From: an uncultured Gammaproteobacteria bacterium
GTDB lineage: Bacteria; Pseudomonadota; Gammaproteobacteria; JAURND01
Assembly: GCA_963813895.1 (NCBI GenBank)
Contig: CAWFAS010000003.1
Span: forward strand, 543,914 to 607,913
Length of the DNA: 64,000 nucleotides
Direction: 5' to 3'
Shown here piece after piece: positions 2,166 to 24,770 of the stretch. Within the stretch, counting starts at the first letter, position 1. Each line of letters begins with the position of its first letter. Below the pieces are notes generated by a model. That model did no database searches and was not told the origin of the DNA. It saw only the letters and a program-made list of their open reading frames with translations. The position numbers were made by a program, and so were the translations under genes.

Positions 2166-2242
2166 AGCTGGCATAGCTCAGTCGGTAGAGCAACTGATTT
2201 GTAATCAGTAGGTCCCGGGTTCGACTCCTGGTGCCAGCACCA
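2166..2242 (+). tRNA. tRNA-Thr (anticodon UGU)
   Basis: Cloverleaf readable by eye: acceptor GCTGGCA/TGCCAGC, D-arm GCTC-AGTCGGTA-GAGC, anticodon stem ACTGA/TCAGT with loop TTTGTAA (U33, anticodon TGT, A37), T-arm CCGGG/CCTGG with TTCGA, discriminator A, encoded CCA. The T-loop appears one base longer than canonical in my reading, so the count may be off by one. Confidence 0.85.
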
Positions 2243-2248
2243 GTTAAA

Positions 2249-3424
2249 TCAATGGGTTACAGCAACATCACCCCTCATTACACAAATCCCTGCGGGACTT
2301 TTGCGGGAGCTGTCATTTTTCATCAATGAATTAGCACCTGAATTAACCTCATAAAATCCTCTGATAACACTCAATGCCGGGCCATTCTGCTGCACACACA
2401 CCTTGTTAACCGCTTCAATCAGCTGAGACAATTCTGCTGCAGAATAGTGCGTCGTAATTCTTCCTGACTTATGACCCAGCAAGTCCTGACGATCCTCAAA
2501 ACTGACTCCCGCCGCACGCAATCTGCGACCAAAAGTGTGCTTGAGATCATGAACTCGCATATGCGGCAACTCTGCCCTAACCCGCGCCTTTCTCCACGCG
2601 GAGCGCAGCATCCTGTCTACTGGTTTACCTTTATAAGTAAATACATACTCAGGGTGTGTGCCACGCACTTCCTCAATCACGGATTTAGCAATACTGTTCA
2701 ATACTACTAAACGGTCATCACGATTCTTAACAACTTTACCGGGTATAAGAAATACTGAGCAATTAGGTATTTCAGGAACAGACACCTCCCACTCCCATTT
2801 AAGCAAACAGACTTCTCTATCACGGCAGCCTGTATTTACTGCAAATAAAGCCATATGCCGGAGGTGAAGCGGTAATTCCTGAAAAAACTGAGTCTGTTCT
2901 TCCCAATTAAGTGGAAAAGGCTTACGCGCATCAGGTTCTGGTAGCAACTTGATCTTAGGCGCAACCTGTAACCAGGTAAGTCCATGTTCATCCAGCCATA
3001 CACCAGCTGCCAAGTTGAGGATATGCCGAACCACTTGCAATCCATGGTTGATGGTACGCATTTTTACACCATCTTTTTTCCTGGCACTAATAAATGACTG
3101 CAAAGTCCCGATATGAACAGCCTCCAGAGTCAAATCACCTATATGCTCGTCCAACACTTTGAGATGACCTGCATCATCTCCAATGCTCGCTTTATGCTGA
3201 TTTTCCAGCAAAAATTTAGTAGCTGCCTCCCGGAATATCCGCTTGGGCCTGACTCCATAAACTTTAGCCTGCCTTATTTGCTCGATCCTTCGCGCAAGGT
3301 ACTGCTCCGCTTCTGCGAGGTCGAAAGTGCCAGTGCTCTCGCAAAGTCTGCGCCCGTGTATTTGTTTGTCGATGTGCCATAAGTCTTTACGTTTGTAGAG
3401 ACCTGGCGTTCTTTTGCGTCCCAT
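2249..3424 (-). CDS. int: P4-type tyrosine integrase (site-specific recombinase) of the genomic island
   Basis: 391 aa. C-terminal catalytic region shows R...HxxR...Y (HDLKHTFGRRL ... LLGHKSGRITTHYSAAEL). Lies 7 bp from the 3' end of tRNA-Thr, the classic island-integration arrangement. Confidence 0.9.
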   Translation of the reverse strand: MGRKRTPGLYKRKDLWHIDKQIHGRRLCESTGTFDLAEAEQYLARRIEQIRQAKVYGVRPKRIFREAATKFLLENQHKASIGDDAGHLKVLDEHIGDLTLEAVHIGTLQSFISARKKDGVKMRTINHGLQVVRHILNLAAGVWLDEHGLTWLQVAPKIKLLPEPDARKPFPLNWEEQTQFFQELPLHLRHMALFAVNTGCRDREVCLLKWEWEVSVPEIPNCSVFLIPGKVVKNRDDRLVVLNSIAKSVIEEVRGTHPEYVFTYKGKPVDRMLRSAWRKARVRAELPHMRVHDLKHTFGRRLRAAGVSFEDRQDLLGHKSGRITTHYSAAELSQLIEAVNKVCVQQNGPALSVIRGFYEVNSGANSLMKNDSSRKSPAGICVMRGDVAVTH

Positions 3425-4097: not shown

Positions 4098-4121
4098 TTG
4101 GAACTTCCGCAGGAAGCTGCG
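4098..4121. other. perfect 10-bp-stem hairpin ACTTCCGCAG-GAAG-CTGCGGAAGT in the int-proximal non-coding region
   Basis: Read directly. No T-run, so not an obvious terminator. Confidence 0.4.
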
Positions 4122-4279
4122 GAAGTCATAACTCTTAGCAATTGTTAGCTCTAAGGACAGCCATTTGTTAAAAATTACACCTAGAATCCGCCGTTTCCTC
4201 AACTCCTTTGCTGTCTAGCTGTTCTTAATTTCTGATGTACACCTTAATTTGTGCCTAAGCACATTATCTGATGCACTAT

Positions 4280-4330
4280 AAAAGAATAATGGCTAGCATG
4301 GCTGACATTTTTAACAGATTGGGTGGATAC
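4280..4330 (+). repeat. ~47-bp sequence (ATAATGGCTAGCATGGCTGACATTTTTAACAGATTGGGTGGATA) repeated imperfectly at 38437-38483
   Basis: Direct comparison of the two stretches shows ~80% identity. Here it is the start of a 70-aa ORF (MASMADIFNRLGGYP...); the second copy is truncated after 13 codons. Confidence 0.6.
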
Positions 4331-5515: not shown

Positions 5516-6172
5516 TTATTCACTATCCAATAGAGGAATCAATCCTAATGGCCCTTTTTCAGAGTCAAAAAGAATGTCAATAAGCCGTTCAATTTTTTTA
5601 ACTCCTAATTTTTTCATGCCATGATATTTTTTGTTTGCAACTGTTTTAGGGCTGATGCATAAACCTTCTGAAATTTCTTCGTGTGTTTTACCCTGAGAAA
5701 CCATTAAAAGTACTTGATGCTCAATTTCTGTTATATTACGAAGATGGCCGGAAATATTTTTATCCATAAGATATTGCAATAATTGATAGGCCAAATCTGG
5801 TTGCACATAAACGTTTCCATGATACACATTTTTAACGGCTTCCGTCCCAGAAAAATTGGAATTTTTACTCATGATTCCTTTGGCGGGCGTGTTAAGCAGG
5901 CGACTCAAAGAAAATAAGTGGCGACTTGCTGATATGAAAATAATTTTAGAATCTGGAGCTTTTCTGCAGATAGAACGACATACTTGGATTCCTGGCATGT
6001 CGGGCAAATATAGATCAAGAATAATAACATCAGGCTGTGTTTCAAGCACCAACTTGATTCCGCTGGCGCCATCGCATGCTTCGCCAATGATTTCAATTTC
6101 ATCATCAGCCAAAAAACTTCTAACACCGAGGCGGGATATTTTATCATCATCTATAATTACTACTTTTATCAT
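5516..6172 (-). CDS. response regulator, receiver domain + LuxR/GerE-type HTH (NarL/FixJ family), orphan
   Basis: N-terminal VVIIDDD...ILDLYLPDM receiver motifs. C-terminal LuxR-type HTH (EISEGLCISPKTVANKKYHGMKKLGV). No adjacent kinase. Confidence 0.7.
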   Translation of the reverse strand: MIKVVIIDDDKISRLGVRSFLADDEIEIIGEACDGASGIKLVLETQPDVIILDLYLPDMPGIQVCRSICRKAPDSKIIFISASRHLFSLSRLLNTPAKGIMSKNSNFSGTEAVKNVYHGNVYVQPDLAYQLLQYLMDKNISGHLRNITEIEHQVLLMVSQGKTHEEISEGLCISPKTVANKKYHGMKKLGVKKIERLIDILFDSEKGPLGLIPLLDSE

Positions 6173-6214
6173 TGTTTATACTACGCTATAAATTTAATAA
6201 CTTAATATTTGGTT

Positions 6215-6529
6215 TTATTTAATTTCACACCTATTATCAACTTTTTTGTTTCTTCGACTGTGGCGTTTTATAAATAATTCTGTAAAGTCTATCATTTCTT
6301 GACTAGGGCTATCATTGCCTAGTTCTTCTAACAATTGAATTGCAAGATAATTAAAGTATTGCGATTTTGACATATTAACTGGCCTAGGAGCATTTTGTTG
6401 CGCTACGCCATAGTATTTAATAAATTTTAGCTCTATATTGCGCTTATCCGCTATCTCGGGCATTAAATTTCTGGTTATTTCCGCTATATTTTTTTCCTTA
6501 GAGTTAATAAATAAATATGTCTCTGGCAT
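6215..6529 (-). CDS. small hypothetical protein, paralog of 6587-6907
   Basis: 104-aa ORF. Shares a ~40-aa C-terminal block with the neighbouring 106-aa ORF (..NMSKS.YF...AI..LE..GN..PSQ.EID..EL.IKR.S.R), i.e. a tandem duplication. Confidence 0.45.
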   Translation of the reverse strand: MPETYLFINSKEKNIAEITRNLMPEIADKRNIELKFIKYYGVAQQNAPRPVNMSKSQYFNYLAIQLLEELGNDSPSQEMIDFTELFIKRHSRRNKKVDNRCEIK

Positions 6530-6586
6530 CTAACGCAATACACTCATATAATTTTGCAAAGGCTTTAAGATAATTAATGATAAATT

Positions 6587-6907
6587 CTAGGCAGCTTTAG
6601 AAACCGCACTAATGCCCGATGCTGTCCGGCATGCCTGCATAAAAATAGGTTTAGTTGACTTTCGCAGGCTATAGCGCTTAATGTTCAATTCGACCATATC
6701 AATTTCAACTTGCGATGGAAACTTGTTGCCCATTTGTTCTAATATCGAAATAGCTGTACAAGTAAAATAAATTGATTTACTCATATTCTGCGGTTTTGGT
6801 TGCTGCTGTAGAATATTTAAGAAATGCTTCATTAATACACTTTCGAATTCCGCAGAATTTTTAGTTATTGCTCCAATTTGCTTGGCTTGTAGATTCAGAC
6901 TTTTCAT
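6587..6907 (-). CDS. small hypothetical protein, paralog of 6215-6529
   Basis: See 6215-6529. Confidence 0.45.
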   Translation of the reverse strand: MKSLNLQAKQIGAITKNSAEFESVLMKHFLNILQQQPKPQNMSKSIYFTCTAISILEQMGNKFPSQVEIDMVELNIKRYSLRKSTKPIFMQACRTASGISAVSKAA

Positions 6908-7105
6908 AATGACCTCTTAACTAATTTTGCTAATTTTCCAGGATTGTAAAACTCAAGAAACATCCTTACTTCTGGCTTAAGATAGCCTTAAGTGCTGATA
7001 TGATCGCTTATATTTGGTTAGAAAAAAATTAAGAGATTTGCCTGATTTTAAAACATTCTTTTTTTGCGCATAAAAAAATTAGGATTTTATGGAGAAAGGA
7101 AGCCC

Positions 7106-8539
7106 ATGATTAATAACAAAAAACAGCCGCGCGGCTTATATCTATTATCTTTTTTAGAGATATGGGATAGGTTTGGATATTATGGCATTCAGTCGATATT
7201 GGTTCTTTTTTTGACTAAAACCATGCTAATGGCTGATGATTCTGCTTATGCTCTGTATGGTATTTATACAGCATTGGCGTTCAGCACACCTTTATTAGGC
7301 GGATACATTGCAGACCGTTTTTTGGGGTACCGAAAGGCAGTAGCATATGGATTGACATTGCTAACTATTGGTAATGCCTTATTATTTATCGAAGGAGCGC
7401 ATACTTTTTATATAGGGTTGTCTCTGGTTATCTGTGGCATAGGTCTTTTTAAAGCCAATAATGCCACACTTCTCGGTTCTCTTTATGAAGCGGGCGATAT
7501 CAAAAAAGAAAAAGGTTTTACTTTGTTTTATATGGGAATGAATATAGGAGCTACATTAGGTCCTGTTGTTTTTGGATTAGCTGCACTTTATTTTAACTGG
7601 AAATATGGCTTCATGCTAAGCGCTTTGGCTAGCGGCTGCAGTCTTGTTTTGTTTGTATTCTTTCGTCAGCTATACAATTCCATTAAACCAAAGACATCTA
7701 AAAAATATCCATTACGATTCTGCGTGGCTTTAATTTGTGCTGTCTTGGGTATATCAGGCCTATTCTATTTTCCGGAGGTATTCAAAGATATACTCTGGCT
7801 CATAGGCATTGTTAGTTTAATTTACTTATTTACAGCTGCGGCAAAACACAGCAAATTTGAAAGAAAATGTATACTGCTGCTGGTTATTTTAGATCTGTTT
7901 GCAATTTTCTTTTTCGCTTGCCAGATACAGATAGGCAGCTCATTAACACTTTTTATAGATCGCCTGGTGAATAAACAGGTATTTGCCTGGACTATTCCCA
8001 CGGCAGCGTTCTCTGCCTTACAACCGATATGTGTTATTATTTCTGCTCCCCTACTGGAACCCATTTGGAATTCTTTGGGACGTTTATTACCTATTTATTC
8101 AGTTATATTACGAGTATTCTTAGGACTGGCATTAGGCGGTCTTAGCTTTGTTTTATTTGCATTATCCGCCGATAGTACTGCATGGCACACTACTATCAAT
8201 TATCCATTAATTGGTGTAGTGGCAGGGAATTTTGTTTTAGGCGCTGGAGAATTATGCATAGGTCCCATTATTATGGCAGCTGTATCTCGCTTTGCCCCTG
8301 AAAGATTACGAGGGCAGCTAATGGGATTCTGGTTTTTATCAATAGCTTTTGCCAGCTATCTGGGCAGTATACTTGCCCAATTTGCAGGGACAGCCAACAT
8401 CAAGTTGACCAACAATAGTACCATTTATTTTCACTCATTCTTAAAAACTAGCCTTGTTACGCTGAGCACCGCATTACTTCTGCTTATTTTCCTGGCTGTA
8501 GTGCGCCGTTTTCCGCTTGCTCAGATAACATCGAAATAA
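7106..8539 (+). CDS. POT/PTR2-family proton-dependent di/tripeptide transporter (MFS)
   Basis: POT signature FLEIWDRFGYYGIQSILVLFLT near the N-terminus and about 12-14 hydrophobic segments. A Shine-Dalgarno GGAGAAAGGAAG lies before the ATG at 7106 (ORF track gives 7064). Confidence 0.85.
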   Translation: MINNKKQPRGLYLLSFLEIWDRFGYYGIQSILVLFLTKTMLMADDSAYALYGIYTALAFSTPLLGGYIADRFLGYRKAVAYGLTLLTIGNALLFIEGAHTFYIGLSLVICGIGLFKANNATLLGSLYEAGDIKKEKGFTLFYMGMNIGATLGPVVFGLAALYFNWKYGFMLSALASGCSLVLFVFFRQLYNSIKPKTSKKYPLRFCVALICAVLGISGLFYFPEVFKDILWLIGIVSLIYLFTAAAKHSKFERKCILLLVILDLFAIFFFACQIQIGSSLTLFIDRLVNKQVFAWTIPTAAFSALQPICVIISAPLLEPIWNSLGRLLPIYSVILRVFLGLALGGLSFVLFALSADSTAWHTTINYPLIGVVAGNFVLGAGELCIGPIIMAAVSRFAPERLRGQLMGFWFLSIAFASYLGSILAQFAGTANIKLTNNSTIYFHSFLKTSLVTLSTALLLLIFLAVVRRFPLAQITSK

Positions 8540-10172
8540 AGCGATTTAATTCCGCTTCCCCCTGCTCAAAACCATGATAACTTGCATATTCATGGGTATT
8601 AATATTCAATTTACTCCATTCAGTCAAAAAAAGCGTCATTGCTTTTGGCTCTATATATAAGCGTTTTGCTTTTTGATAAAGACCAGTTAAACGTAAGGCA
8701 TCTAAAAACCACCAAATATCTTGACTAGATGGATAAGCACCAATGGCGTCAGCATTGTTATTGACCACCAAAAAATCAAATCGTATAGCTAAATCCATTA
8801 ATGCTAAGAATGCCTCCAGTGATGAATCATTTTCTTGCAGCCAAGTTTCCATAGCTTGAGTGCTTAATAATTTATGATTAAAACGAAATTTATTAGCATA
8901 ATGTGCGACTTCAATCTGGTCAGGGATCAAGCCAATTTGCGTGGCTTTTAGATCAATTCTATGAAAAAGAGTAGCAATGGTATACATAATATTATATTTA
9001 TCAATATCTGACTGTTTAAATGCGCTACATACGACAGATTTATTTTTTTCAGGAGAATACTGTAAGCCAATGCGTTTTTTGTAGTAGCTATAATAACCTG
9101 ATAATTGCATCAGATAGACCAAGTAATCCATGCTACTTTTTTCATTATCGCTATAATTTAAACAATTAAGTCGTGTGATAAATTGCTTTAGATCTTTATC
9201 AAAACAATCATTTTCCATTTGCCAGCTTTGCTGTGTGACAATATCTCCCAAACCAAATATACCCTCTGATTGATTTCTTTCTCTTTGAGCAATATTGTAG
9301 GTTATCGTCAATAGGTAGGCCAAACGTTGTGTAAGTAGGTAATTTTTTCCAAATAATCGCGCAATCAAAGCGACTTTTTCTTGAATAGGCAACCAATCCT
9401 TATAAACGATAAAAGGCTGGCACTGCATTGATCGTTGTAGAGTACGAAAATAAATAGTGCGCTCAAGATGGGGTTTATTTTGAGATGGAACAACAGCAGT
9501 ATTTGAATTTCTGATTAACTCCAATAATTCGGCTGCATCCAAAGCTTTTTGATCTATGTAACCTCCCTGAGCTAGCCAGGTTATTAAGCGTTTAATCTCT
9601 TCTTCCTTGAATTTATCAATGTTGCTTAAACAAATTTCTTTCAATGTACGTCGTTGATAAAATGTTTGTTTGGTTAGGTAAATTAAGGTATCTACTGTTT
9701 CCTGATTGACAATAGACTGAGCAAGTGCCGACTCCAGTGTCGCTCGTATATTTACCATAGGGTCTGTAATAACTTGGTAACCTGTAGCTTCAGTACCATG
9801 TAATATAGCCACTTCATCATCATCCGTAAGCTTGCCTGACGCATAATCATAAAAAACTTTTCCAACTCCCCGCATACCATAGCGCTCTAATTCCGCAGCT
9901 CTTAATGCACCCATGCTGGAAGCACCGAATACTTTAATACCTTGTTCCAACGCATATAATATTTCTTTATGCCAGACCGCTGCTGTTTTTTCAAACACGC
10001 CATCAATAATTAAGATGACCTCCGGTTTTAATCGCATGACACGCAAAATATCGCCACATTTTACTGGGGGCAAATAAAACGCTTCAGGCAATATCTCTTG
10101 AGCTTTAGTTAATGGTAACGATGGGCCTAGGAAGACGAATATATTGCAGCTAGGAGGATTTTTAGTATTCAC
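8484..10172 (-). CDS. TfuA-like domain protein with ~330-aa C-terminal extension of unknown function
   Basis: N-terminal ~230 aa match the TfuA core (IFVFLGPSLP...CGDILR...LIIDGVFEKTAAVWHKEILYALEQGIKVFGASSMGALRAAEL..YGM.GVG). It is immediately downstream of, and overlaps by 4 nt, a YcaO gene. Confidence 0.75.
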   Translation of the reverse strand: MNTKNPPSCNIFVFLGPSLPLTKAQEILPEAFYLPPVKCGDILRVMRLKPEVILIIDGVFEKTAAVWHKEILYALEQGIKVFGASSMGALRAAELERYGMRGVGKVFYDYASGKLTDDDEVAILHGTEATGYQVITDPMVNIRATLESALAQSIVNQETVDTLIYLTKQTFYQRRTLKEICLSNIDKFKEEEIKRLITWLAQGGYIDQKALDAAELLELIRNSNTAVVPSQNKPHLERTIYFRTLQRSMQCQPFIVYKDWLPIQEKVALIARLFGKNYLLTQRLAYLLTITYNIAQRERNQSEGIFGLGDIVTQQSWQMENDCFDKDLKQFITRLNCLNYSDNEKSSMDYLVYLMQLSGYYSYYKKRIGLQYSPEKNKSVVCSAFKQSDIDKYNIMYTIATLFHRIDLKATQIGLIPDQIEVAHYANKFRFNHKLLSTQAMETWLQENDSSLEAFLALMDLAIRFDFLVVNNNADAIGAYPSSQDIWWFLDALRLTGLYQKAKRLYIEPKAMTLFLTEWSKLNINTHEYASYHGFEQGEAELNRFISMLSEQAENGALQPGK

Positions 10173-11341
10173 ATTCTGGCCCCATTGAACTTTAAACCTG
10201 GAACCAATACTTGCACTACGGGGATGCCAATCTCCTTTTTAGTATGATTTACTAGCAACACATGTCGATAGTCCTTCCTATAGAGTAAGACGATTATTTG
10301 TTTTATATTTTCAGCAAAAGAAGATTGATATTCTGGCTGCACCCCTTTTGCATAGTCATGCATGCCATCTTTGAGCCAGTCTTCCTCCAATAGTTGATTA
10401 AGCATTCTTTGCCGCTGATAGTATTCAGGGAATACATCATCCCGGTTGCCGCTGATTAATGTTAATCTTGCCTGTGCTGCTTCGGTTAATGCCCGAGACA
10501 AGGCAACTTCTTTTGATAAATGAGCCCCAGTTCCTGTGAATAATCCCAAACTTCTAAATAAATTGATGTCGTAGATTGCACAATGAAATGCTGGAATTCC
10601 CAAGGGCGAAGCAATGTCCCAAATTTTTACCCGTAACCCCGCCAGATGCAAGTGCGTCAATAACTGAATGTTACTGTCCTGAATACTCGCCTGCGATAGT
10701 AGTTTTTTATTCTTGATTTCCTGATCCAGTTGTTGCCATTGATAAAGCGAATCACGCTCTATCAATTCATATAATGCATGACAGATCGCTTCTTCATGGG
10801 TATTGCCTGCCGCCAAACCGTTCGTACTGACAGATAAAAAACTATATTCAGGGTGAGGTTGGGTAGAGTCTAAACAGGTAAGAATATGAGGAATATAAAA
10901 ATTAGTATTGGTAGGTAAATCTAAAGCAGACACCCATCCCAACTCCAGAGTATCTAATTTTTTCTGAGTAAATTGAGTCCTATTAAAAAAATCAGGATTT
11001 ATCAGCTTGTGAATATTGCAAAGTGCAGCATAGGAGCCAGCAAGCGCAGGGCCGAGTGCATTTTCCATATGATAGGCTTCTAGTGCCTCCATAATTGCAG
11101 AAATTTCTGCTAACTGTTGGGACAAGCCTTTGCCTTGTGATACTGAAAGATGCTTCGCATTGGGGCGTATGCAGGTAGCAACAGCGATACCGACGGAATC
11201 GAGTCCTGTAATATTGGCTACTCGAGTAATACCCACATTGGGCAAAATTGGCTTTAATCGTTGTAGAGTCTTATCAGTGAAATCGGCACGAATTGTACCT
11301 TGCAGAGGATAATAATTGTCCAAGCACACCACATTAACCAC
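10169..11341 (-). CDS. YcaO-domain protein (ATP-dependent amide-backbone activating enzyme family)
   Basis: Hallmark YcaO motifs GITRVANITGLD..GI.V......RP ... SQGKG and SVSTNGLAAGNTHEEAICHALYELIERD. Confidence 0.85.
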   Translation of the reverse strand: MVNVVCLDNYYPLQGTIRADFTDKTLQRLKPILPNVGITRVANITGLDSVGIAVATCIRPNAKHLSVSQGKGLSQQLAEISAIMEALEAYHMENALGPALAGSYAALCNIHKLINPDFFNRTQFTQKKLDTLELGWVSALDLPTNTNFYIPHILTCLDSTQPHPEYSFLSVSTNGLAAGNTHEEAICHALYELIERDSLYQWQQLDQEIKNKKLLSQASIQDSNIQLLTHLHLAGLRVKIWDIASPLGIPAFHCAIYDINLFRSLGLFTGTGAHLSKEVALSRALTEAAQARLTLISGNRDDVFPEYYQRQRMLNQLLEEDWLKDGMHDYAKGVQPEYQSSFAENIKQIIVLLYRKDYRHVLLVNHTKKEIGIPVVQVLVPGLKFNGARM

Positions 11342-11606
11342 CCACCAGGGGTAAAAACAAGGTTATAACATCATCGCTTTCGAGAAAAAGTTCTTGTTGG
11401 GATGAAGGATGTATTTGCTTGCCATTTAAATAGATGCTTATAAAAGGGCGTATATTGTGCTTGTCATCAAAAAGATACTGCTCTATTTCAGGAAAATCCT
11501 TAATTAAAGCAGCTCTAACATCTTTTAAGTGATCACAATTAACAATAATCTTAGATTGATGGTTAGTAAACTTAGTTAATACATCTGGTATAAGAATTGT
11601 CGGCAT
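11334..11606 (-). CDS. ThiS/MoaD-like ubiquitin-fold sulfur-carrier protein ending in Gly-Gly
   Basis: 90-aa ORF with C-terminus ...ITLFLPLVGG-stop. Beta-grasp-like length. Overlaps the YcaO start by 8 nt. Confidence 0.65.
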   Translation of the reverse strand: MPTILIPDVLTKFTNHQSKIIVNCDHLKDVRAALIKDFPEIEQYLFDDKHNIRPFISIYLNGKQIHPSSQQELFLESDDVITLFLPLVGG

Positions 11607-11765
11607 AAGTGAGGCAATATTCTGTTGATAAACCTAAAATTAAATCAGGTCTAACAATTGGAACTAAGCGGGCGATACCGAGTAATTTGTTAAAAAAATC
11701 CTTTGATGACCTTGTCATTTCACAAGATGGCTGCCTTGCCGAACAAAAACTCGTTACAAGCCAAC

Positions 11766-11972
11766 TTAATTTAATAAGCTAATACCTGATTCGCATTCTA
11801 CATTCGAAAATAGTGGCCCTGAGAGACCTAACAAACTTTCATAAAAAATCATTATTTGCACGTTATCAAGTTCTTGAGCAGAAATACCGCTCTTTGGTTC
11901 AAAGTCATTAATCATGGTTAATCCCGGATAATTTATATTATTTAGTGAAACACTAAACGTTTTAGTTCTCAC
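11766..11972 (-). CDS. 68-aa ORF between the ThiS-like gene and the 443-aa gene; candidate small peptide (speculative)
   Basis: Same strand, inside the operon and fills the gap. No homology recognised. Could equally be non-coding. Confidence 0.2.
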   Translation of the reverse strand: MRTKTFSVSLNNINYPGLTMINDFEPKSGISAQELDNVQIMIFYESLLGLSGPLFSNVECESGISLLN

Positions 11973-12004
11973 AACCCTGAGAGTAAATTAATCCTTTGAT
12001 CTTA

Positions 12005-13336
12005 TTATACATCAGATTTTCTTGAGATTCGAATACAACCTCTTAAAAATGGACTCGATGCGCAGAATGACTTCTCAGGATATTTCTTTAATTCAGAGAC
12101 TAGCATGGAATCACCCATTGTGATTTCAGAAGAATTTAATATCAGTTCTCTGCTATCCATTTCAGAATGAAAATAAGAATAATCAATATTTTTTGCCCAT
12201 TTATAAATAGGAGTATTTACCAATTTTAACTTGTCCTCCAATAAATAAGTAGATATTCCATTCATTACATGTTTGATTTCTCGTAAGTCTTCGAGCTTAC
12301 TAGTGATTTTTTTTGATTTTGGTGAAAATACTACCAAGGTCGGTACTGCTAGAGAGTAATAGCAGGGTCTTTGGGGATCTTCTGCAGAAAAGTATCCAGG
12401 ATGTAACATCGTGGGAGAGTATTTTAAGCTATAGATATTATTAAAAACAGTTTGTAGTGCTCTGATAGGACCTGCACTCTCGTCGTGGGCCACTATAAAA
12501 GCTGGGTAAGTACCAGTTCCAATAGAATATAAATGCTTTACAGTGTCAGTAAGATATGGATTAGGTTTCAGATTTTTGGCTTCTAACGCGCAGGAAAAAG
12601 CAAAATCAAGCACGACCTGATTACGTAAATATGCGGTTTCGTGCCAAGCAGTTTCCATAAGATAGGATCGAAGAAGTCGCCATTTGGGGTCTTTCTGATT
12701 TTCTAACCATTTGCCTGAAAAAAATAAAACTTCTACTGACCACGGTTCAGGGAAAGTAGCGCATTGTGCCAATTCCTTAAAGACTTCCCATTCATCAAGA
12801 AAATCTTTGGGCACAGAAGAAAATAGGTTGAATTCACGTTTTAGCTTTTTGTAATAGGTGACATCCGAAATTTTAGGTAGCATTATAAGTGAACGTGCGC
12901 CAGCGGTAATGCTCCAGATATGGCCGAGATGCGCCGACTGCATAATTTCTAATACAGTCCAAAGTGCAAAGATTTTGCCAGTTCGCATTAAACTGAATGG
13001 CACTACACGCCTGCCTTCCAACAAAAATAGTTCAATTGAATTATTAAGTACTACTCCCATTGGCATAGTCTGCGCATAGGTTAATGATTCTCTTATTTCA
13101 GGGTCAAGGTCAGGATTATCAATGGATAATAATTGCTGATTATCTGTGGGGAGATGAAGCACACCCTTATCTAAAATGGTAGCCCCAAAGGGATAGCGAG
13201 CCTTAATTAAAAGGAAATCATTTCCCGGATCAATTTTATCTATTTCGTTAGCAAGCTGGGGATTAGCCTTAACTACATCGTCTCTTGCCTGCTTCCAGGT
13301 CAATTTTTCAATTGCAGGTCTATTGTCTTTCCCCAT
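12005..13336 (-). CDS. hypothetical protein (443 aa), first gene of the YcaO/TfuA operon
   Basis: Long uninterrupted ORF, co-directional and tightly spaced with the downstream genes. No family recognised by eye. Confidence 0.6.
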   Translation of the reverse strand: MGKDNRPAIEKLTWKQARDDVVKANPQLANEIDKIDPGNDFLLIKARYPFGATILDKGVLHLPTDNQQLLSIDNPDLDPEIRESLTYAQTMPMGVVLNNSIELFLLEGRRVVPFSLMRTGKIFALWTVLEIMQSAHLGHIWSITAGARSLIMLPKISDVTYYKKLKREFNLFSSVPKDFLDEWEVFKELAQCATFPEPWSVEVLFFSGKWLENQKDPKWRLLRSYLMETAWHETAYLRNQVVLDFAFSCALEAKNLKPNPYLTDTVKHLYSIGTGTYPAFIVAHDESAGPIRALQTVFNNIYSLKYSPTMLHPGYFSAEDPQRPCYYSLAVPTLVVFSPKSKKITSKLEDLREIKHVMNGISTYLLEDKLKLVNTPIYKWAKNIDYSYFHSEMDSRELILNSSEITMGDSMLVSELKKYPEKSFCASSPFLRGCIRISRKSDV

Positions 13337-13756
13337 AATAATTTTCCCTTTGATGAATGAACATTTTGTTTCATCGTAATATGTATTTTAAACCGATTTC
13401 CTTTTTGCACCTGGTCTAGCATACACATTTCCAATAATTAAATTACCAGTTTTATGCAAACATTAGTTCTTATTGCTGATAATACGATTAAGTATAGTAG
13501 ATGGGAATTACTAAGTGAGCCACATCAGGGGATTACCGAGGTTTTTAATCTCTTTAACCATAAATCTTAAACTTATTGGATATACCCAAATTCTTTCCAT
13601 CATGATTTTTAAGTTGATTATTTTCAAAAAAAGATCGTAAGCCACCAATATTCACTTTGCTTTCATTGTACTAATCATAGCAACATAAACTGGAGGTTTC
13701 CATGAGTAACTTCATCGTACCTGATCGCTAGTTTTGCTTGAAAGATTGGCCAGAAA

Positions 13757-13972
13757 ATGGCACAGGAATGCGGGTGCTATGCTTGCTATAGACTTTCAGA
13801 TAATTTCTTTGGAACTCCCCATCTTGAAAAAATGGGGAGCGAGGATTTTTTCAAAAATCATTATCTGAAAAACCAGTTGGGCAAAAAATATCAAAAAAAC
13901 TCCAAAGAATGTACAATTAAAAATTCTTATGCCTATTTTGAGAAAAACCATTCTTTTGATATTTATTTATGA
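13757..13972 (+). CDS. 71-aa Cys-rich small ORF translationally coupled (ATGA overlap) to the E1/rhodanese gene
   Basis: MAQECGCYACYRLSD... Its stop overlaps the start codon of the following gene. Confidence 0.3.
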   Translation: MAQECGCYACYRLSDNFFGTPHLEKMGSEDFFKNHYLKNQLGKKYQKNSKECTIKNSYAYFEKNHSFDIYL

Positions 13973-15087
13973 AGCTAACCCCAACTGAAATTCTACGCTA
14001 TTCGCGCCATTTCCCGATCATTAATCAGACTGGCCAAGAGCAACTAAAAAACGCAGCTGTGCTATGTGTGGGCGCGGGTGGTTTAGGTTCTCCTGCTCTG
14101 TTATATCTGGCAGCAGCAGGTATAGGAAAACTCGGGATCATAGATCATGATCGCGTAGAAATCAGCAACCTACAACGACAGATATTATTTACCAATGCTG
14201 ATATCGGGCAGCTCAAAGTTGATTGCGCGCGACAACACCTTGTTGCACAAAATCCCGATATCGAGATCAAAACTTATCCGCTGCGCTTGATTAGCAGCAA
14301 TGCGCAACAGCTAGTTGCTAATTACGATATCGTACTGGATGGCAGCGATAACTATGAAACACGCTATCTGATTAACGATGTGTGTCACAGTGCCGGTAAA
14401 CCAATGGTCTCCGCGAGTATTTTTCAGTTTCAAGGTCAAATCAGTGTCTTCAATGTCGATGATGGTCCGTGTTATCGCTGCTTATATCGCGCTCCACCGC
14501 CCGCTGAGTTAATGCCGGATTGCGCTGCCGGCGGTGTATTAGGAGTGTTACCTGGCATTATGGGCACAATCCAGGCAACAGAAACCATTAAACTAATCCT
14601 CAAAAAGGGGCAATCCTTGGGTGGGCGCTTATTGATCTTTGATGCTCTCTGCATGAGTTTTAATGAGTATACTATTCATTCTGATCCGCAGTGTCCGCTT
14701 TGCCAGTATAGCCAGCTATCTGATGATCTATTCACTCAACCTTCGCGGGAATGTAATTCTGATGGAACGGTACCTGAAATCCAGCCTTCAGAGTTGGCCA
14801 GTTGGTTACGGGATTCAGCAGCATCAGTGCAACTATTGGATGTACGTGAACCCTATGAGCGCGCAATTTGTCACATTGGTGGAGCATTTCTACCACTTTC
14901 CCAATACAATCCTTCCCACTTAAAACTTAATAAGCAAATACCAACTGTTGTTTATTGCAAGCATGGTAATCGGAGTCAAATAGCCGCCAAATTGTTGCAG
15001 GCAGAAGGTTACCAACGGGTTTTCACTCTAAAAGGTGGAATTATAGCTTGGGCGGAACAGATTGACTCATCCATTGTAATATATTGA
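13969..15087 (+). CDS. MoeZ/MoeB-like E1 adenylyltransferase with C-terminal rhodanese domain (sulfur-carrier activating enzyme)
   Basis: ThiF/MoeB nucleotide-binding motif VLCVGAGGLGSPALLYLAAAGIGKLGIIDHDRVEISNLQRQ. CxxC pairs (CYRC, CPLC). C-terminal rhodanese-like block (VVYCKHGNRSQIAAKLL..GY..VF.L.GGI..W). Confidence 0.85.
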   Translation: MKLTPTEILRYSRHFPIINQTGQEQLKNAAVLCVGAGGLGSPALLYLAAAGIGKLGIIDHDRVEISNLQRQILFTNADIGQLKVDCARQHLVAQNPDIEIKTYPLRLISSNAQQLVANYDIVLDGSDNYETRYLINDVCHSAGKPMVSASIFQFQGQISVFNVDDGPCYRCLYRAPPPAELMPDCAAGGVLGVLPGIMGTIQATETIKLILKKGQSLGGRLLIFDALCMSFNEYTIHSDPQCPLCQYSQLSDDLFTQPSRECNSDGTVPEIQPSELASWLRDSAASVQLLDVREPYERAICHIGGAFLPLSQYNPSHLKLNKQIPTVVYCKHGNRSQIAAKLLQAEGYQRVFTLKGGIIAWAEQIDSSIVIY

Positions 15088-15321: not shown

Positions 15322-15966
15322 CTAATCGACCCCATTGATCAAACCACTTTCTATCACCATACGCACCGCTTCTGCATCCGTTTTAACCCCCAGTTTCTTT
15401 AATACATTAGCTATATATCCGCTAATCGTTTTCTTACTGAGATACAAACTCTTTGCAATGTCGCCTCTTTTCATACCACTCACAATCAGGAGAAGAATTT
15501 GCAACTCACGCTCATTCAACTGCAGTAACGGTGATGGATTATTCTGTGCAGCCATATGGAATGAAGCAATGACTTCAGCCATCGCTGGGTCAATATAGCG
15601 ACTGCCCGCATAAACAGCCTGAATTGCCTGCAGCATTTCTTCCCGGCTGGCGCGCTTACTTAAATAACCCGCAGCGCCCATGTCAAGTAAGCGAGCAGGC
15701 ACAAGTCCACTGGTATACGCACTAAGAATTAATATCTTCAGCGCAGGTTTATGCCGCAACAGACGAGCAATCGCTTCAAAGCCGCCCATGCCTGGCATAT
15801 TAAGGTCTATCAGAATAATGTCTGGATTGAGCTCGCGAGCAGCGCGAATGGCGTCTTCGCCGCTTTCTGCTTCGCCAATCACTTGGAGGGTGTCAGTATC
15901 ATTCAACATCAATTTTAGGCTACTCCGTACCAATTCGTGGTCGTCGACAAGTAAAATCCTGATCAC
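15322..15966 (-). CDS. GacA/UvrY (LetA-like) response regulator, NarL/FixJ family
   Basis: MIRILLVDDHELVR...IILIDLNMPGMGG...LILSAY receiver domain plus LuxR HTH (LNERELQILLLIVSGMKRGDIAKSLYLSKKTISGYIANVLKKLGV). Confidence 0.8.
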   Translation of the reverse strand: MIRILLVDDHELVRSSLKLMLNDTDTLQVIGEAESGEDAIRAARELNPDIILIDLNMPGMGGFEAIARLLRHKPALKILILSAYTSGLVPARLLDMGAAGYLSKRASREEMLQAIQAVYAGSRYIDPAMAEVIASFHMAAQNNPSPLLQLNERELQILLLIVSGMKRGDIAKSLYLSKKTISGYIANVLKKLGVKTDAEAVRMVIESGLINGVD

Positions 15967-16359: not shown

Positions 16360-18913
16360 ATAGGGTAGGAAGCGAGATTCCCCGAAGGGTAATCCGTCAA
16401 CCCCCCTCCGAACCGGACTTGAACCTTTCAGCTCATCCGGCTCTCCACTTGCTTTTCTTTAGCTCTTCTTAAGTCAGGAAGTTTTCCAGCATGTAACAAA
16501 TCATGACATGAGACACAGAGAACTAATGTTTTCCTTTGTCTTCTTGCCATTATTATTTGCCACAATTTCTTTCCTTCTTTTAAGTCACTCAACTTTCGGA
16601 TGTGATGCACTTCGAATGGTCCCGTTTGTCCCTTACAGTATTCGCACTGACGTGCATTTAATCGTTGAACAAGCTCCGTTCGACTTAAAGTAAATTGCCA
16701 GGTATTAGGCATATCATCGATATGTTTATATGTGGCTTCTTTACGCTTCACATCCTTCAATTTGAATATCTTAAAAATGTGTATATTCGTTTTGCTGCGA
16801 ACAGTTAGCATTAGCCCTTGCGGAGTTTGGAGCCTTTTGGTGATTTTGCCTATCGTAGTTTTGTGCTTGCCTGCTAATGTTTTAAGCAAGCTTGTTTGCC
16901 ATACCCACGCTAGTTTTCCCAAGCTCCAAAAGTTCTGGGCTAACCCATAATAATTAGCTAACCCACGCATTTCCGCGTTATAGGTTTTAATAATCTCTGC
17001 GTCGCTGAGATTGAACAACTCCGCTCGATGAACTGTTTTGAGAGTTGCATAATTTCCGTATTTTTTGTTTTTACAGAATTGACTCAGCTTTTCTTGGGGT
17101 ATATATAATTGCATACGTTCTGCCATAGTTCTTTCGCGCGTATGGCATTTTCCCCTGACAGTCCTAACTGTCTTATTGCCAGAGTAAATAGCTATATTAT
17201 AACCCAAGAATCGTGCACCTTTCGACCCACTTACTATATGAGATTTTTCATGAGCTATTTCGAGCTGTAGATTGATCTCGATAAATTTCTGTATTTTATC
17301 GCGCACAGTAATTGCATCATATTTGGAACCGATAATGCCAATTACAAAATCATCTGCATATCGACAGTAGCGCAATCTCTTATAATTCGGGTCTAACGGT
17401 TCAAGAGTTTTATTTGTTTTCCGTTGTATATCCAGGATTTTTATTTGTTGCTTGAGAGCATGAATCTGCTCAGCAGTGTTTTGCTGTTGATTCAAACTGT
17501 CAATTTTCTTCCGTAATCCATAGATAGAAGCACTGATACGGTCATACTCCGCCTTACTTGCTCTCCTCTTACCTCGGTTAAACTCCGTTTTCAATGTTTC
17601 AACGAATATATCGAGTTCGTGAAGATAAATATTTGCTAGAAGCGGTGAAACAATATTTCCTTGCGGTGTTCCGCTAAATGTTTTGTGGAATTTCCAGTCT
17701 TCGACATATCCGGCTGTTAACATCAGTTCAATAAGGTGAATGAATTTATTATCTTCAATCTTTTCCTTAAGGAGCTTGATGAGGATAGCATGATGGATAT
17801 TATCGAAGTAACCTCTGATATCCATGTCAATGATCCACTTTAGACCGTGCCATCGATTTTTAATTTCATTTAATGCGGTATGACAAGATTTTCCTGGCCT
17901 AAATCCATGGGCATTTTTATGAAAAATTGGCTCATAGATCTTTTCCAGTATCATCCTGACTACTTCAGAAATTAATTTATCGTCTCCAGACGGAATACCT
18001 AATGGACGCTGCTTCCCATTCGCTTTGGGAATATACACTCTTTTTACTGGGTTGAAACGATAATGGTCTTCTTTGATTTCTTTAATCAATCTTTGGACTC
18101 GTTCCATAGAGAATCTGTCCAATGATTTACCATCTGTTCCAGGTGTCGTTGCTCCCTTATTGGCATATATATTTATATATGCCTGCAGCCACAACATCGG
18201 ATTCTCTAAAAGTCTAAAAAGACCATTAATACGTTTTCCTTTCTTAGATAGCTCTCCAAGTGCATCTAATCTCTTAATCGTAGTATCGGTTAGCATCAGC
18301 ACAACCTCTCTTAAGATTTTAGTTGCATAAGCAAGCTGCTTTCCTTCCCCCCAGACAGAGAGTTTTTCATTGATATTACTATCAACTTATGACTGTGTCG
18401 GTATCGCTTACTTTTAGGCGATCAGCCATTTCCATTACAGAAATGACATCGGGTAATACGAAAGCTCTGTTGCCTTATTGGTCGTAGTCTGAATAGACCA
18501 ACTTAGGCAATCCCATGTTTACGACAAACCAAAGTTACAACGTGGTTAGGCCTCCTTTTCGTCTCGACGATCCCTTTTATGAGGGCATGTCTAAACAACT
18601 GGACAATGTAACACGCCCGATAAGTTACCTTGTGTTTAGAACAGATGTTACAGTTATCTTTCATCAGTGCCTGTCAAAAAGCCATGGAGACTGGGATTCA
18701 GGTAGTATAACTTTGACCATACACGTTTTATCCTTACCCCTTCAGCTATAGATAACTTTCAGCATTGGGGCATTTTCCCAACATGCTACACTCCCTCTTC
18801 CCTTTCGGGATTCAAGCCTGTTACCAAGCAGAGATAAGTTGGGTGGATATAAGATTTTCCAGTAATCTTAGCGACTGTTAGTCGCGCTCCTGTTTGACGC
18901 CGACACGGCGCAC
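16360..18913 (-). mobile_element. group II intron (apparently intact), minus strand
   Basis: RT/maturase/endonuclease ORF inside. Domain V (GAGCCGGATGAGCTGAAAGGTTCAAGTCCGGTTC) read as the reverse complement of 16408-16443, overlapping the ORF stop. A GTGCGCC 5' end lies at plus 18913. The 3' end is placed approximately (+/-20 nt) after a domain VI-like hairpin. Confidence 0.75.
16428..18302 (-). CDS. group II intron-encoded protein: reverse transcriptase + maturase (X) + HNH endonuclease
   Basis: RT blocks (RPLGIPSGDDKLISEV, GFRPGKSCHTAL, DIRGYFDNIHH, GTPQGNIVSPLLANIYL, YADDFVIG). C-terminal Cys/His HNH region (CEYCKG...HHIRKLSDL...CVSCHDLLH). Confidence 0.9.
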   Translation of the reverse strand: MLMLTDTTIKRLDALGELSKKGKRINGLFRLLENPMLWLQAYINIYANKGATTPGTDGKSLDRFSMERVQRLIKEIKEDHYRFNPVKRVYIPKANGKQRPLGIPSGDDKLISEVVRMILEKIYEPIFHKNAHGFRPGKSCHTALNEIKNRWHGLKWIIDMDIRGYFDNIHHAILIKLLKEKIEDNKFIHLIELMLTAGYVEDWKFHKTFSGTPQGNIVSPLLANIYLHELDIFVETLKTEFNRGKRRASKAEYDRISASIYGLRKKIDSLNQQQNTAEQIHALKQQIKILDIQRKTNKTLEPLDPNYKRLRYCRYADDFVIGIIGSKYDAITVRDKIQKFIEINLQLEIAHEKSHIVSGSKGARFLGYNIAIYSGNKTVRTVRGKCHTRERTMAERMQLYIPQEKLSQFCKNKKYGNYATLKTVHRAELFNLSDAEIIKTYNAEMRGLANYYGLAQNFWSLGKLAWVWQTSLLKTLAGKHKTTIGKITKRLQTPQGLMLTVRSKTNIHIFKIFKLKDVKRKEATYKHIDDMPNTWQFTLSRTELVQRLNARQCEYCKGQTGPFEVHHIRKLSDLKEGKKLWQIIMARRQRKTLVLCVSCHDLLHAGKLPDLRRAKEKQVESRMS

Positions 18914-24538: not shown

Positions 24539-24770
24539 ATTTGTTTGCTCCGTAGGTGAAATGAGTAAAAATCCTTAGGAAATCAGGGCAAGTTTTGTGG
24601 GGAATAGTCGCTCTTAGTGTCTTTGTAAGTACCGAGTAAGCCAGTTGCATTACTGCAACTGGCTCCTCTAAGAACGCAGCTTGCGACTTTCATCGCACTA
24701 CGCTCAAGCATTTTTTAAGACTGATTTTGTCAGTCCGACCATCTCATCCAGAGGCTCATTAAAACTCCAG

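What the first reader, a model, noticed from the sequence alone, without database searches (positions are those of the whole stretch)
11766..13972. Two small ORFs positioned as candidate precursor/carrier peptides of the YcaO system
A 68-aa ORF (11766-11972) sits inside the minus operon between the ThiS-like gene and the 443-aa gene. A 71-aa Cys-rich ORF (13757-13972; ECGCYACY motif) is translationally coupled (ATGA) to the E1/rhodanese gene. Neither resembles known families by eye. RiPP precursors and sulfur-relay partners are often tiny, unannotated and operon-embedded.
Basis: inference. Interest (0 to 1): 0.55.

Follow-up and report, generated by a model that had tools for sequence, protein, structure and literature searches.

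The report
Conserved precursor peptide of thioamide cluster
One of the two small ORFs is a real, conserved 49-residue peptide gene that is most likely the substrate of a sulfur-inserting (thioamide-forming) enzyme set carried on a mobile island, while the other, Cys-rich ORF is most likely a chance reading frame in a promoter region.

Summary
Both ORFs exist as described, but they have different fates.

**ORF68 (11766-11972, minus) is a real gene, though shorter than reported.**
- The conserved gene starts at the internal ATG: 11766-11915, 49 aa.
- Related peptides sit in the same slot in six other clusters. That slot is directly after a ~440-aa gene of unknown family and before ThiS / E1 / YcaO / TfuA. 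One cluster carries three tandem copies.
- All share the motif E-x-h-h-G-[LI]-x-x-P-h-h-x-x-h-E (h = hydrophobic).
- Against the closest relative, the 11-codon core has 8 synonymous and 1 non-synonymous codon differences.
- No Pfam or NCBIfam model matches any member.
- Best reading: a new precursor-peptide family for YcaO-TfuA backbone thioamidation. The 90-aa GG-terminated ThiS-like protein, not the peptide, is the sulfur carrier.

**ORF71 (13757-13972, plus) is not supported.**
- It has no homologue and is not called in the public protein collection.
- No locus fetched matches it.
- Orthologues of the E1 gene (70-73% identity) have stops in all three frames upstream.
- The ATGA "coupling" follows simply from the E1 gene's second codon starting with A.
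- The E1 itself is the housekeeping type. The cluster lies in a low-GC stretch that begins at a tRNA-Thr and an integrase gene, and this stretch abuts the E1.

The parts
11766..11915 (-). Precursor-peptide gene, 49 aa plus stop: MINDFEPKSGISAQELDNVQIMIFYESLLGLSGPLFSNVECESGISLLN. Conserved core runs from E26 to E40. E26, G30 and E40 are invariant; P34 is kept in 8 of 9 family members.
11916..11972 (-). The 5' extension of the 68-aa ORF (GTG start). Not conserved, so probably untranslated leader rather than coding sequence.
   Evidence: no conservation upstream of the ATG; the gene caller used the 49-aa start; no coding signal.
12005..13336 (-). 443-aa protein of an uncharacterised family, the constant upstream neighbour of the peptide gene. 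No Pfam, NCBIfam or PDB sequence match. The confident AF2 model has only a cNMP-binding-like beta-barrel in common with solved structures.
11334..11606 (-). ThiS/MoaD/SAMP1-like sulfur-carrier protein, 90 aa, C-terminal Gly-Gly. Its stop region overlaps the YcaO start.
10169..11341 (-). YcaO. Its closest curated model is the McrA-glycine thioamidation YcaO, scored below that model's cut-off.
8484..10172 (-). TfuA domain (residues ~11-222) followed by a 340-aa C-terminal extension with no known family. Its start overlaps the YcaO stop.
7064..8539 (+). POT/PTR2 peptide:proton transporter, convergent on the operon. Conserved in the L001 and L021 clusters and present in the related cluster on Legionella plasmid pLPL.
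13969..15087 (+). MoeZ/MoeB-type ThiF + rhodanese E1. It is the housekeeping orthologue on backbone DNA (GC about 0.45) and the probable activator of the ThiS-like carrier.
13757..13972 (+). ORF71 (71 aa). Most likely a chance ORF in the AT-rich divergent intergenic region, not a gene.
   Evidence: The codon-usage test was uninformative.
2167..3424 (.). tRNA-Thr (2167-2242, plus) followed immediately by a phage-type integrase (2249-3424, minus). This marks the left side of the low-GC stretch (about 3500-13970) that carries the cluster.
   Evidence: No att repeat was found.
6215..6907 (-). Two paralogous small proteins (104 and 106 aa) next to the transporter. A 107-aa homologue sits at the same place in L001. 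Function unknown.

Best explanation
**The peptide.** Window 11766-11915 (minus) encodes a 49-residue peptide. It is most likely the ribosomally made substrate (RiPP precursor) of the adjacent YcaO-TfuA backbone-thioamidation machinery.

**Proposed pathway.**
1. The operon 443aa - peptide - ThiS - YcaO - TfuA is transcribed from the divergent region near 13337-13700.
2. The ThiS-like protein (C-terminal GG) is adenylated and thiocarboxylated by a ThiF+rhodanese E1. Here that is the neighbouring housekeeping MoeZ-type enzyme.
3. TfuA hydrolyses the thiocarboxylate and hands sulfide to YcaO.
4. YcaO uses ATP to activate a backbone amide in the conserved core E-x-h-h-G-[LI]-x-x-P-h-h-x-x-h-E and replaces O with S. 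The invariant glycine G30 is a guess at the site, by analogy with McrA thioglycine.
5. The 443-aa protein binds, processes or further modifies the peptide.
6. The POT transporter moves the product or a short fragment of it.

**What is shown and what is inferred.** Shown: the gene order, the conservation, purifying selection on the peptide, and the domain identities. Inferred from the published biochemistry of the families: steps 2-4. Speculative: the modification site, and the roles of the 443-aa protein and the transporter.

**ORF71** is a chance ORF.

**Confidence.** About 0.93 that the 49-aa ORF is a real translated gene, and about 0.6 that it is the YcaO-TfuA substrate. The score given is for the second claim.
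For: **Conservation in the closest relative.**
- A syntenic cluster in a gammaproteobacterial MAG (L001; 443-aa protein 75% identical) carries a 48-aa ORF with the same start (MIN...), a GGAGG ribosome-binding site and the same C-terminal core.
- In the core YESxLGLSGPL, 8 codons differ synonymously and 1 non-synonymously. Over the last 26 codons, substitutions by codon position are 7/3/14.

**Recurrence in more distant clusters.**
- Five more clusters have 443-family neighbours 45-50% identical to the window protein by tblastn: L007, L017/18, L020, L021/22 and L024.
- Each has a small ORF with the same motif directly after the 440-aa gene and before ThiS/E1/YcaO/TfuA. L020 has three tandem copies. 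The L024 ORF was not called by the gene caller.
- A profile of the family finds nothing in stand-alone 443-family loci or in Legionella plasmid clusters.
- Shine-Dalgarno-like sequences precede most copies.

**Enzyme and carrier identities.**
- TfuA scores 220.6 bits against the McrA-thioamidation TfuA model, whose cut-off is 235.2. YcaO has E = 3.5e-62 against the matching YcaO model. The ThiS/SAMP1-like protein ends in GG. The E1 has ThiF and rhodanese domains.
- Dedicated ThiS and E1-rhodanese genes are embedded in the L020 and L021 clusters. An E1 is embedded in L007.

**Literature.** Thioamide-forming YcaOs use ThiS-type thiocarboxylates and the TfuA hydrolase (PMC13063428 and PMC9576775, both citing Liu et al. 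2021).

**ORF71.**
- No homologue, and not itself in a 15-billion-protein collection.
- No tblastn hit better than E = 4.5 in any locus.
- Stops in all frames upstream of E1 orthologues.
Against: - There is no biochemical, transcript or proteomic evidence.
- The conserved part is the C-terminal 25 residues and the N-terminus is variable. Many RiPPs show the opposite pattern, with a conserved leader and a variable core.
- No leader-peptidase, RiPP recognition element or double-Gly cleavage motif is recognisable.
- The peptide always adjoins the 443-aa gene, so it could belong functionally to that protein rather than to YcaO.
- The related cluster on Legionella plasmid pLPL has 443-family + ATP-grasp + ThiS + ThiF + YcaO + TfuA + POT. 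No family-type peptide was found there, so the machinery can exist without this peptide.
- Other YcaO-TfuA pairs modify full-size proteins such as McrA.
- For ORF71, the comparison genomes lack the island. The ORF would not be expected there if it were island cargo. The closest strain (E1 98% identical) could not be fetched.
Confidence: 0.6

Rival explanations
1. The peptide is a real gene, but it is a partner, ligand or substrate of the 443-aa protein rather than the YcaO-TfuA substrate. It could be an inhibitor, a chaperoned peptide or a signal. The thioamidation target would then be something else: the 443-aa protein itself, another protein, or a small peptide.
For: - In all seven clusters the peptide gene directly follows the 443-family gene.
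- The 443-aa model has a ligand-binding-type cNMP-binding-like barrel.
- pLPL has the same enzyme set with an ATP-grasp gene and no family-type peptide.
- The best curated matches of this YcaO and TfuA are the protein-modifying McrA type.
Against: - Stand-alone 443-family genes (L008, L011, L015, L019, L023, L025) never have the peptide. It appears only where YcaO-TfuA is also present.
- Tandem triplication (L020) is typical of RiPP precursors.
- In Legionella plasmid pPC1000_1, an annotated 42-aa ORF sits directly upstream of ThiS-YcaO-TfuA. The 443-family gene there is on the far side of the cluster.
Confidence: 0.2
2. The small ORF is a regulatory leader peptide (uORF or attenuator). Its translation would control expression of the downstream ThiS-YcaO-TfuA genes.
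For: - It lies upstream of ThiS-YcaO-TfuA.
- The 159-nt spacer downstream folds somewhat better than shuffles (z = -2.25).
Against: - Amino-acid-level conservation of a 15-residue motif holds across clusters that share only 18-50% peptide identity.
- L020 has three tandem copies.
- In L021 only 15 nt separate the peptide stop from the ThiS start, which leaves no room for an attenuator.
- There is no run of a regulatory amino acid.
Confidence: 0.05
3. ORF71 is a genuine small Cys-rich protein. It would be translationally coupled to the E1 and act in the sulfur relay or as a second precursor.
For: - The ATGA overlap with the E1 start is real.
- An ORF this long in that exact frame arises in only 0.15% of shuffles.
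- Its in-frame codon-usage score (0.232) lies in the range of real genes.
Against: - It has no homologue and was not called as a gene.
- Nothing similar occurs in any related cluster or upstream of any E1 orthologue. Those upstream regions have stops in every frame.
- The +1 frame scores equally well for codon usage (0.219), so that test does not discriminate.
- There is no Shine-Dalgarno sequence.
- The composition is the K/N-rich kind expected of 32% GC DNA.
- The E1 is a housekeeping gene that sits beside hldE in relatives.
- The TGA of the ATGA is an automatic consequence of the E1's second codon being AAG.
Confidence: 0.06
4. The 49-aa ORF is a chance ORF, or a conserved non-coding DNA/RNA element.
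For: It is short, and its own Shine-Dalgarno sequence is weak (GGGA).
Against: - The synonymous-dominated substitution pattern.
- The motif is conserved at the protein level when the DNA is not alignable.
- No Rfam match.
- The in-frame codon score is 0.225, against 0.082 and -0.088 in the other frames.
Confidence: 0.03

Closest known systems
YcaO-TfuA thioamidated RiPP gene clusters (thiovarsolin, thioamitide and thiopeptin type) with ThiS/ThiF sulfur supply
   Same: - Adjacent, overlapping YcaO and TfuA genes.
- A ThiS-like carrier ending in GG.
- A ThiF+rhodanese E1 inside or next to the cluster.
- A small conserved peptide gene in the operon, multi-copy in one relative.
   Different: - The precursor family matches no Pfam or NCBIfam model.
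- The conserved partner is a 440-aa protein of unknown family and largely unmatched fold.
- TfuA carries a 340-aa extension of unknown family.
- A POT/PTR2 transporter replaces the more usual ABC or MFS exporters.
- The hosts are Legionellales-like Gammaproteobacteria and the cluster sits in a mobile island.
- No thioamitide tailoring genes are present.
McrA glycine thioamidation system (YcaO TIGR03266 + TfuA NF033432) of methanogens
   Same: These are the best-scoring curated models for this YcaO and TfuA. TfuA scores 220.6 bits against a cut-off of 235.2. The peptide core contains an invariant glycine.
   Different: Both proteins score below the equivalog cut-offs. The host is bacterial and has no McrA. 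The candidate substrate is a 49-aa peptide, not a 60-kDa enzyme subunit.
YcaO/TfuA clusters on Legionella conjugative plasmids (for example pLPL of L. pneumophila Lens and pPC1000_1; drawn but not analysed in PMC3218107, Fig. 2)
   Same: They share a 443-family protein (22-25% identity), MoaD/ThiS, ThiF-type E1, YcaO and TfuA. pLPL also has an oligopeptide:H+ symporter. All are on mobile DNA.
   Different: pLPL has an ATP-grasp gene and no family-type peptide. pPC1000_1 has two other unknown proteins and an annotated 42-aa ORF (MDDKQEF...ISLNSISLI) that the family profile does not recognise.
Conserved-core precursors of peptide-derived cofactors (PqqA, MftA). This comparison is from my own knowledge and was not tested here.
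   Same: A short peptide whose C-terminal part is strongly conserved, not hypervariable, encoded beside its modifying enzymes.
   Different: No radical-SAM enzyme, PqqD-type or MftB-type partner is present. The chemistry expected here is thioamidation. This is an analogy only.

Membership tests
Precursor peptide of a YcaO-TfuA thioamidated RiPP | Small gene-encoded peptide in the same operon as adjacent YcaO and TfuA genes | tested here: met
   The peptide lies at 11766-11915, and ThiS-YcaO-TfuA follow on the same strand. The arrangement is the same in 6 other clusters.
Precursor peptide of a YcaO-TfuA thioamidated RiPP | The peptide is under protein-level selection and co-occurs with the enzymes | tested here: met
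   The core shows 8 synonymous and 1 non-synonymous codon differences. E26, G30 and E40 are invariant in 9 peptides. The peptide is absent from 443-family loci that lack YcaO.
Precursor peptide of a YcaO-TfuA thioamidated RiPP | The mature peptide carries a backbone thioamide (+15.98 Da) | not testable with these tools
   Needs expression and mass spectrometry.
Precursor peptide of a YcaO-TfuA thioamidated RiPP | Leader/core organisation with a recognisable recognition element or leader peptidase | tested here: inconclusive
   The N-terminus is variable and the C-terminal 25 aa are conserved. No protease or RRE domain was found in the cluster proteins. The roles of the 443-aa protein and the TfuA extension are unknown.
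   The 49-aa peptide ends in SLLN and ORF71 ends in DIYL. Neither matches any model. The 90-aa ORF 11334-11606 does match ThiS/SAMP1 and ends in GG.
Thioamitides (thioviridamide type) | Tailoring genes beyond YcaO/TfuA in the cluster. From my own knowledge these include AviMeCys-forming decarboxylase, phosphotransferase/lyase and methyltransferase. | tested here: not met
   Pfam and NCBIfam scans of all cluster proteins from 6215 to 15087 show none of these.
Tiarins / trifolitoxin-like RiPPs | TfxB/TfxC-type FMN-dependent dehydrogenase pair and a precursor with a conserved Gln motif (bioRxiv 10.64898/2025.12.02.691738) | tested here: not met
   No nitroreductase or FMN-dehydrogenase domain is present in the cluster. 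The peptide core has no such motif.
Translationally coupled upstream gene (ORF71 with the E1) | The ORF and its overlap are conserved upstream of orthologous E1 genes or in homologous clusters | tested here: not met
   E1 orthologues at 70-73% identity have stops in all three upstream frames. There is no tblastn hit in any locus and no homologue in the protein database.

The most novel reading that the evidence does not exclude
The peptide, the 440-aa protein of largely unmatched fold, the extended TfuA and the POT transporter together define a new class of peptide-derived thioamide product. A strongly conserved core would be thioamidated and then cut down to a short fragment of di- or tripeptide size. 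That fragment would be moved by a POT transporter and would act as a signal, cofactor-like molecule or Trojan-horse toxin. The system would spread on mobile islands and conjugative plasmids of Legionella-like intracellular bacteria. The ATP-grasp version on plasmid pLPL would be a non-ribosomal route to a similar product.
Probability: 0.2. Interest if true: 0.75.

Novelty: new variant of a known kind. Interest (0 to 1): 0.5.

Why it matters
**Why it matters.** YcaO-TfuA clusters are abundant in Proteobacteria. One survey (PMC8120280) counted 613 gene-cluster families, of which 70% are proteobacterial. That same paper notes that every characterised TfuA-YcaO thioamidated RiPP comes from Actinobacteria.

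**What this work provides.**
- A concrete candidate substrate with a defined 15-residue motif.
- Nine sequences from seven clusters.
- A constant unknown partner protein with a high-confidence structural model.

**What it makes testable.** This is enough to design a co-expression and mass-spectrometry experiment. Relatives of the enzyme set and of the 440-aa family sit on conjugative plasmids of Legionella pneumophila, L. longbeachae and Francisella. The product may therefore bear on competition or host interaction in these pathogens.

**A practical warning.** A tidy ATGA overlap and a Cys-rich motif (ORF71) are not evidence of a gene in AT-rich intergenic DNA.

Tried and rejected
**Regulatory RNA and island boundary**
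- Rfam, whole window at gathering thresholds and 11500-14100 at permissive E-values: nothing in the region. Riboswitch or leader RNA is rejected for both ORFs.
- Search for an att direct repeat of the tRNA-Thr 3' end, to fix the island boundary: none found. The right boundary therefore rests on the GC step at about 13970 only.

**Tests that did not discriminate**
- Codon-usage scoring could not separate ORF71 from its +1 frame or from antisense ORFs in AT-rich DNA.
- The promoter/terminator scan found fewer promoter-like sites than the shuffles did, so it is uninformative.

**Searches that failed or were limited**
- The 98%-identical E1 relative (P0003) would have been the best test of ORF71, but it could not be fetched.
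- The genome scan with the 443-aa protein found only one locus.
A three-sequence alignment then worked.
- AFDB Foldseek was unavailable.

**The 443-aa protein and other cluster proteins**
- No Pfam match in 40 family members.
- No PADLOC or PHROG match, so an anti-phage defence reading is not supported.
- The TfuA extension shows no similarity to the 443 family or to PDB entries.

**Possible extra copies and related families**
- ORF 11572-11718 contains LLGIA and ILGLS strings and looked like a second peptide copy in the window. The family profile does not detect it, so no claim is made.
- The two unknown proteins of the Legionella plasmid pPC1000_1 cluster are not detectably related to the 443 family.
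- Tiarin/trifolitoxin membership was rejected because there is no TfxB/C pair.
Full report
**1. What is in the window.**

On the minus strand there is a co-directional gene set:
- a 443-aa ORF (12005-13336);
- ORF68 (11766-11972);
- a 90-aa ORF ending in Gly-Gly (11334-11606);
- a 390-aa ORF (10169-11341);
- a 562-aa ORF (8484-10172).

The last three overlap by a few bases. Pfam and NCBIfam identify them as follows.
- The 90-aa ORF is ThiS/SAMP1-like.
- The 390-aa ORF is YcaO. Its best curated model is TIGR03266, the McrA-glycine thioamidation YcaO (E = 3.5e-62, below cut-off).
- The 562-aa ORF is TfuA. It scores 220.6 bits against NF033432, whose cut-off is 235.2. It also has a 340-aa C-terminal extension with no known family.

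A POT/PTR2 transporter (7064-8539) is convergent on the operon. Divergent from the 443-aa gene, across a 632-bp AT-rich spacer, lies a ThiF+rhodanese E1 of the MoeZ/MoeB type (13969-15087). ORF71 (13757-13972) fills the last third of that spacer and ends in the ATGA overlap. The 443-aa protein, ORF68 and ORF71 match nothing in Pfam or NCBIfam.

**2. Genomic setting.**

A tRNA-Thr (2167-2242) is followed at once by a phage-type integrase (2249-3424). After that comes DNA of 0.25-0.40 GC up to about 13970. GC then steps to 0.45-0.46 inside the E1 gene. The cluster therefore looks like cargo of an integrated island, although no att repeat was found.

The E1 groups with housekeeping genes.
- Its closest relatives (70-73% identity) lie beside hldE in ordinary chromosomal neighbourhoods with no YcaO.
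- It is only 31-42% identical to the E1 genes embedded in related clusters.

**3. ORF68 is real, but as a 49-aa gene.**

The only genome locus found with the 443-aa protein is L001, a gammaproteobacterial MAG (75% identity). It has the same order: 443aa - small ORF - ThiS - YcaO - TfuA - POT - 107-aa protein.
- Its small ORF is 48 aa, starts MIN... like the internal ATG of ORF68, and has a GGAGG ribosome-binding site. The DNA upstream of that ATG is not conserved.
- The 49-aa product is the one called in public records (P0001).
- In the core YESxLGLSGPL, 8 codons differ synonymously and 1 non-synonymously. Over the last 26 codons, substitutions by codon position are 7/3/14. This is the signature of selection on the protein.
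- The in-frame codon score is 0.225, typical of real genes. The other two frames score 0.082 and -0.088.

**4. The peptide is a family.**

A full HMMER search with the 443-aa protein gave 1197 cluster representatives. Fetching the neighbourhoods of the closer ones gave five more clusters.

| Locus | Order after the 440-aa gene |
|---|---|
| L007 | (E1 upstream) peptide, YcaO |
| L017/18 | 52-aa peptide, ..., YcaO, TfuA, a second 443-family paralogue |
| L020 | three tandem peptides, ThiS, E1-rhodanese, YcaO |
| L021/22 (TARA) | 38-aa peptide, ThiS, E1-rhodanese, YcaO, TfuA, POT |
| L024 | uncalled 59-aa ORF, YcaO, TfuA, paralogue |

- The nine peptides share E-x-h-h-G-[LI]-x-x-P-h-h-x-x-h-E. 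E26, G30 and E40 are invariant, and P34 is kept in 8 of 9.
- Shine-Dalgarno-like sequences precede most copies.
- L001 also carries a degenerate second copy with no in-frame start codon.
- A profile of the family finds nothing better than E = 3 in the control loci. These were 443-family loci that lack YcaO (L008, L010, L011, L015, L019, L023, L025) and two Legionella plasmid clusters (L026, L027).
- A word-indexed search of 5.8 billion proteins found only the window's peptide and L001's.
- No Pfam or NCBIfam model matches any member.

**5. How it most likely works.**

Published work describes ThiS-type thiocarboxylates and the TfuA hydrolase as the sulfide supply for thioamide-forming YcaOs (PMC13063428; PMC9576775; both cite Liu et al. 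2021). All the parts are present.
- The carrier is the GG-terminated 90-aa protein.
- The E1+rhodanese can load it. It is dedicated in L007, L020 and L021. In the window it is the housekeeping copy next door, and in L001 it is elsewhere in the genome.
- TfuA and YcaO are present.
- The conserved peptide is the candidate substrate.

**6. Caveats and rivals.**

- The conserved region is C-terminal and the N-terminus is variable.
- No leader peptidase or RiPP recognition element is recognisable.
- The peptide always adjoins the 443-aa gene, so it may belong functionally to that protein.
- Related clusters sit on Legionella conjugative plasmids, where 443-family proteins are 22-30% identical (29 Legionella plasmids and 1 Francisella plasmid). 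They show that the enzyme set can occur without this peptide.
  - pLPL has 443-family + ATP-grasp + ThiS + ThiF + YcaO + TfuA + an oligopeptide symporter.
  - pPC1000_1 has an annotated 42-aa ORF just upstream of ThiS, which the family profile does not recognise.
- The leader-peptide and non-coding readings are unlikely, given.

**7. ORF71.**

- It has no homologue, and the ORF itself is absent from the 15-billion-protein collection, whereas the 49-aa peptide is present.
- No tblastn hit better than E = 4.5 was found in any fetched locus, including the regions upstream of 443 homologues.
- E1 orthologues have stops in all three upstream frames.
- There is no Shine-Dalgarno sequence.
- The ATGA overlap follows from the E1's second codon being AAG.
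- Its length is mildly unusual: 0.15% of shuffles for that exact frame, and 9% for any frame in 632 nt. Codon usage cannot decide.
- The weakness of the test is that the comparison genomes lack the island, and the 98%-identical strain could not be fetched.
- I put the chance that ORF71 is a real gene at about 6%.

**8. Comparison with known systems, and novelty.**

The system works like a YcaO-TfuA thioamidated RiPP cluster with a ThiS/ThiF sulfur supply, which is a known kind (PMC8120280, PMC6511847).
- It is not a thioamitide, because there are no tailoring genes.
- It is not a tiarin, because there is no TfxB/C pair.
- It is not an anti-phage defence system in PADLOC.

What is new:
- the precursor family;
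- its constant 440-aa partner of unknown family;
- the extended TfuA;
- the POT transporter;
- the mobile-element setting in Legionellales-like bacteria.

I rate it a new variant of a known kind, with interest 0.5.

Noticed in passing
window 12005-13336; loci L008, L011, L015, L019, L021, L023, L025-L027: The 443-aa protein belongs to a large uncharacterised family. It has 1197 representatives at 50% clustering, no Pfam model and a confident AF2 model with no whole-chain match in the PDB. Members occur alone, as several paralogues around one cluster (L021, L017, L024), and on 29 Legionella and 1 Francisella plasmids, mostly conjugative.
   Followed up: partly
window 8484-9506 (minus): TfuA carries a 340-aa C-terminal extension that is also present in L001, L017, L021 and L024 (482-554 aa proteins). 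It has no Pfam, PDB or 443-family similarity. It may be a substrate-recognition domain.
   Followed up: partly
L027 (pLPL of L. pneumophila Lens) 3036-11821: A related cluster has the order POT symporter, hypothetical, 443-family, ATP-grasp, ThiS, ThiF, YcaO, TfuA. It has no family-type peptide. This could be a non-ribosomal counterpart of the peptide route.
   Followed up: partly
L026 (Legionella sp. PC1000 plasmid) 10555-10683: A PGAP-annotated 42-aa ORF (MDDKQEFNVSLSEQDINLFETDIQEVYDIFENPISLNSISLI) sits directly upstream of ThiS-YcaO-TfuA. Its ending (ISLI) resembles the window peptide's (ISLLN), but the family profile does not detect it.
   Followed up: partly
L001 11466-11570: A degenerate second copy of the peptide core (LLGLSSPLIATIEHDSE) with no in-frame start codon. 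It is either a pseudogene or a homopolymer sequencing error in the MAG.
   Followed up: partly
window 13480-13527 (plus) versus L012 1414-1456: A 48-nt stretch in the spacer between the 443-aa gene and the E1 is 83% identical to sequence just upstream of a 39%-identical 443 homologue in L012. Its orientation relative to the gene is opposite. This is unexplained.
   Followed up: no
window 11572-11718 (minus): A 48-aa ORF in the peptide-ThiS spacer overlaps the ThiS start and contains LLGIA and ILGLS strings reminiscent of the peptide core. It is not significant by the family profile.
   Followed up: yes
window 6215-6529 and 6587-6907 (minus); L001 16771-17094: Two paralogous proteins of about 105 aa and unknown family lie next to the POT transporter. 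One homologue is conserved at the same position in L001.
   Followed up: no
window 16360-18302, 24631-24707, 30143-30279 (minus): Group II intron RNA domains occur at three places (Rfam). At 16428-18302 there is a full intron-encoded protein with reverse transcriptase, maturase and HNH domains.
   Followed up: no
window 5516-6172 and 15322-15966 (minus): Two LuxR/GerE-type response regulators flank the cluster, one inside the low-GC island. GerE-type regulators are also found near the L008 and L024 loci.
   Followed up: no
L002 and L003 (both from run ERR11718638): The same sequencing run contains a contig identical to the window's cluster. It also contains a contig with an E1 only 73% identical to the window's. 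Two related organisms therefore share that sample.
   Followed up: no
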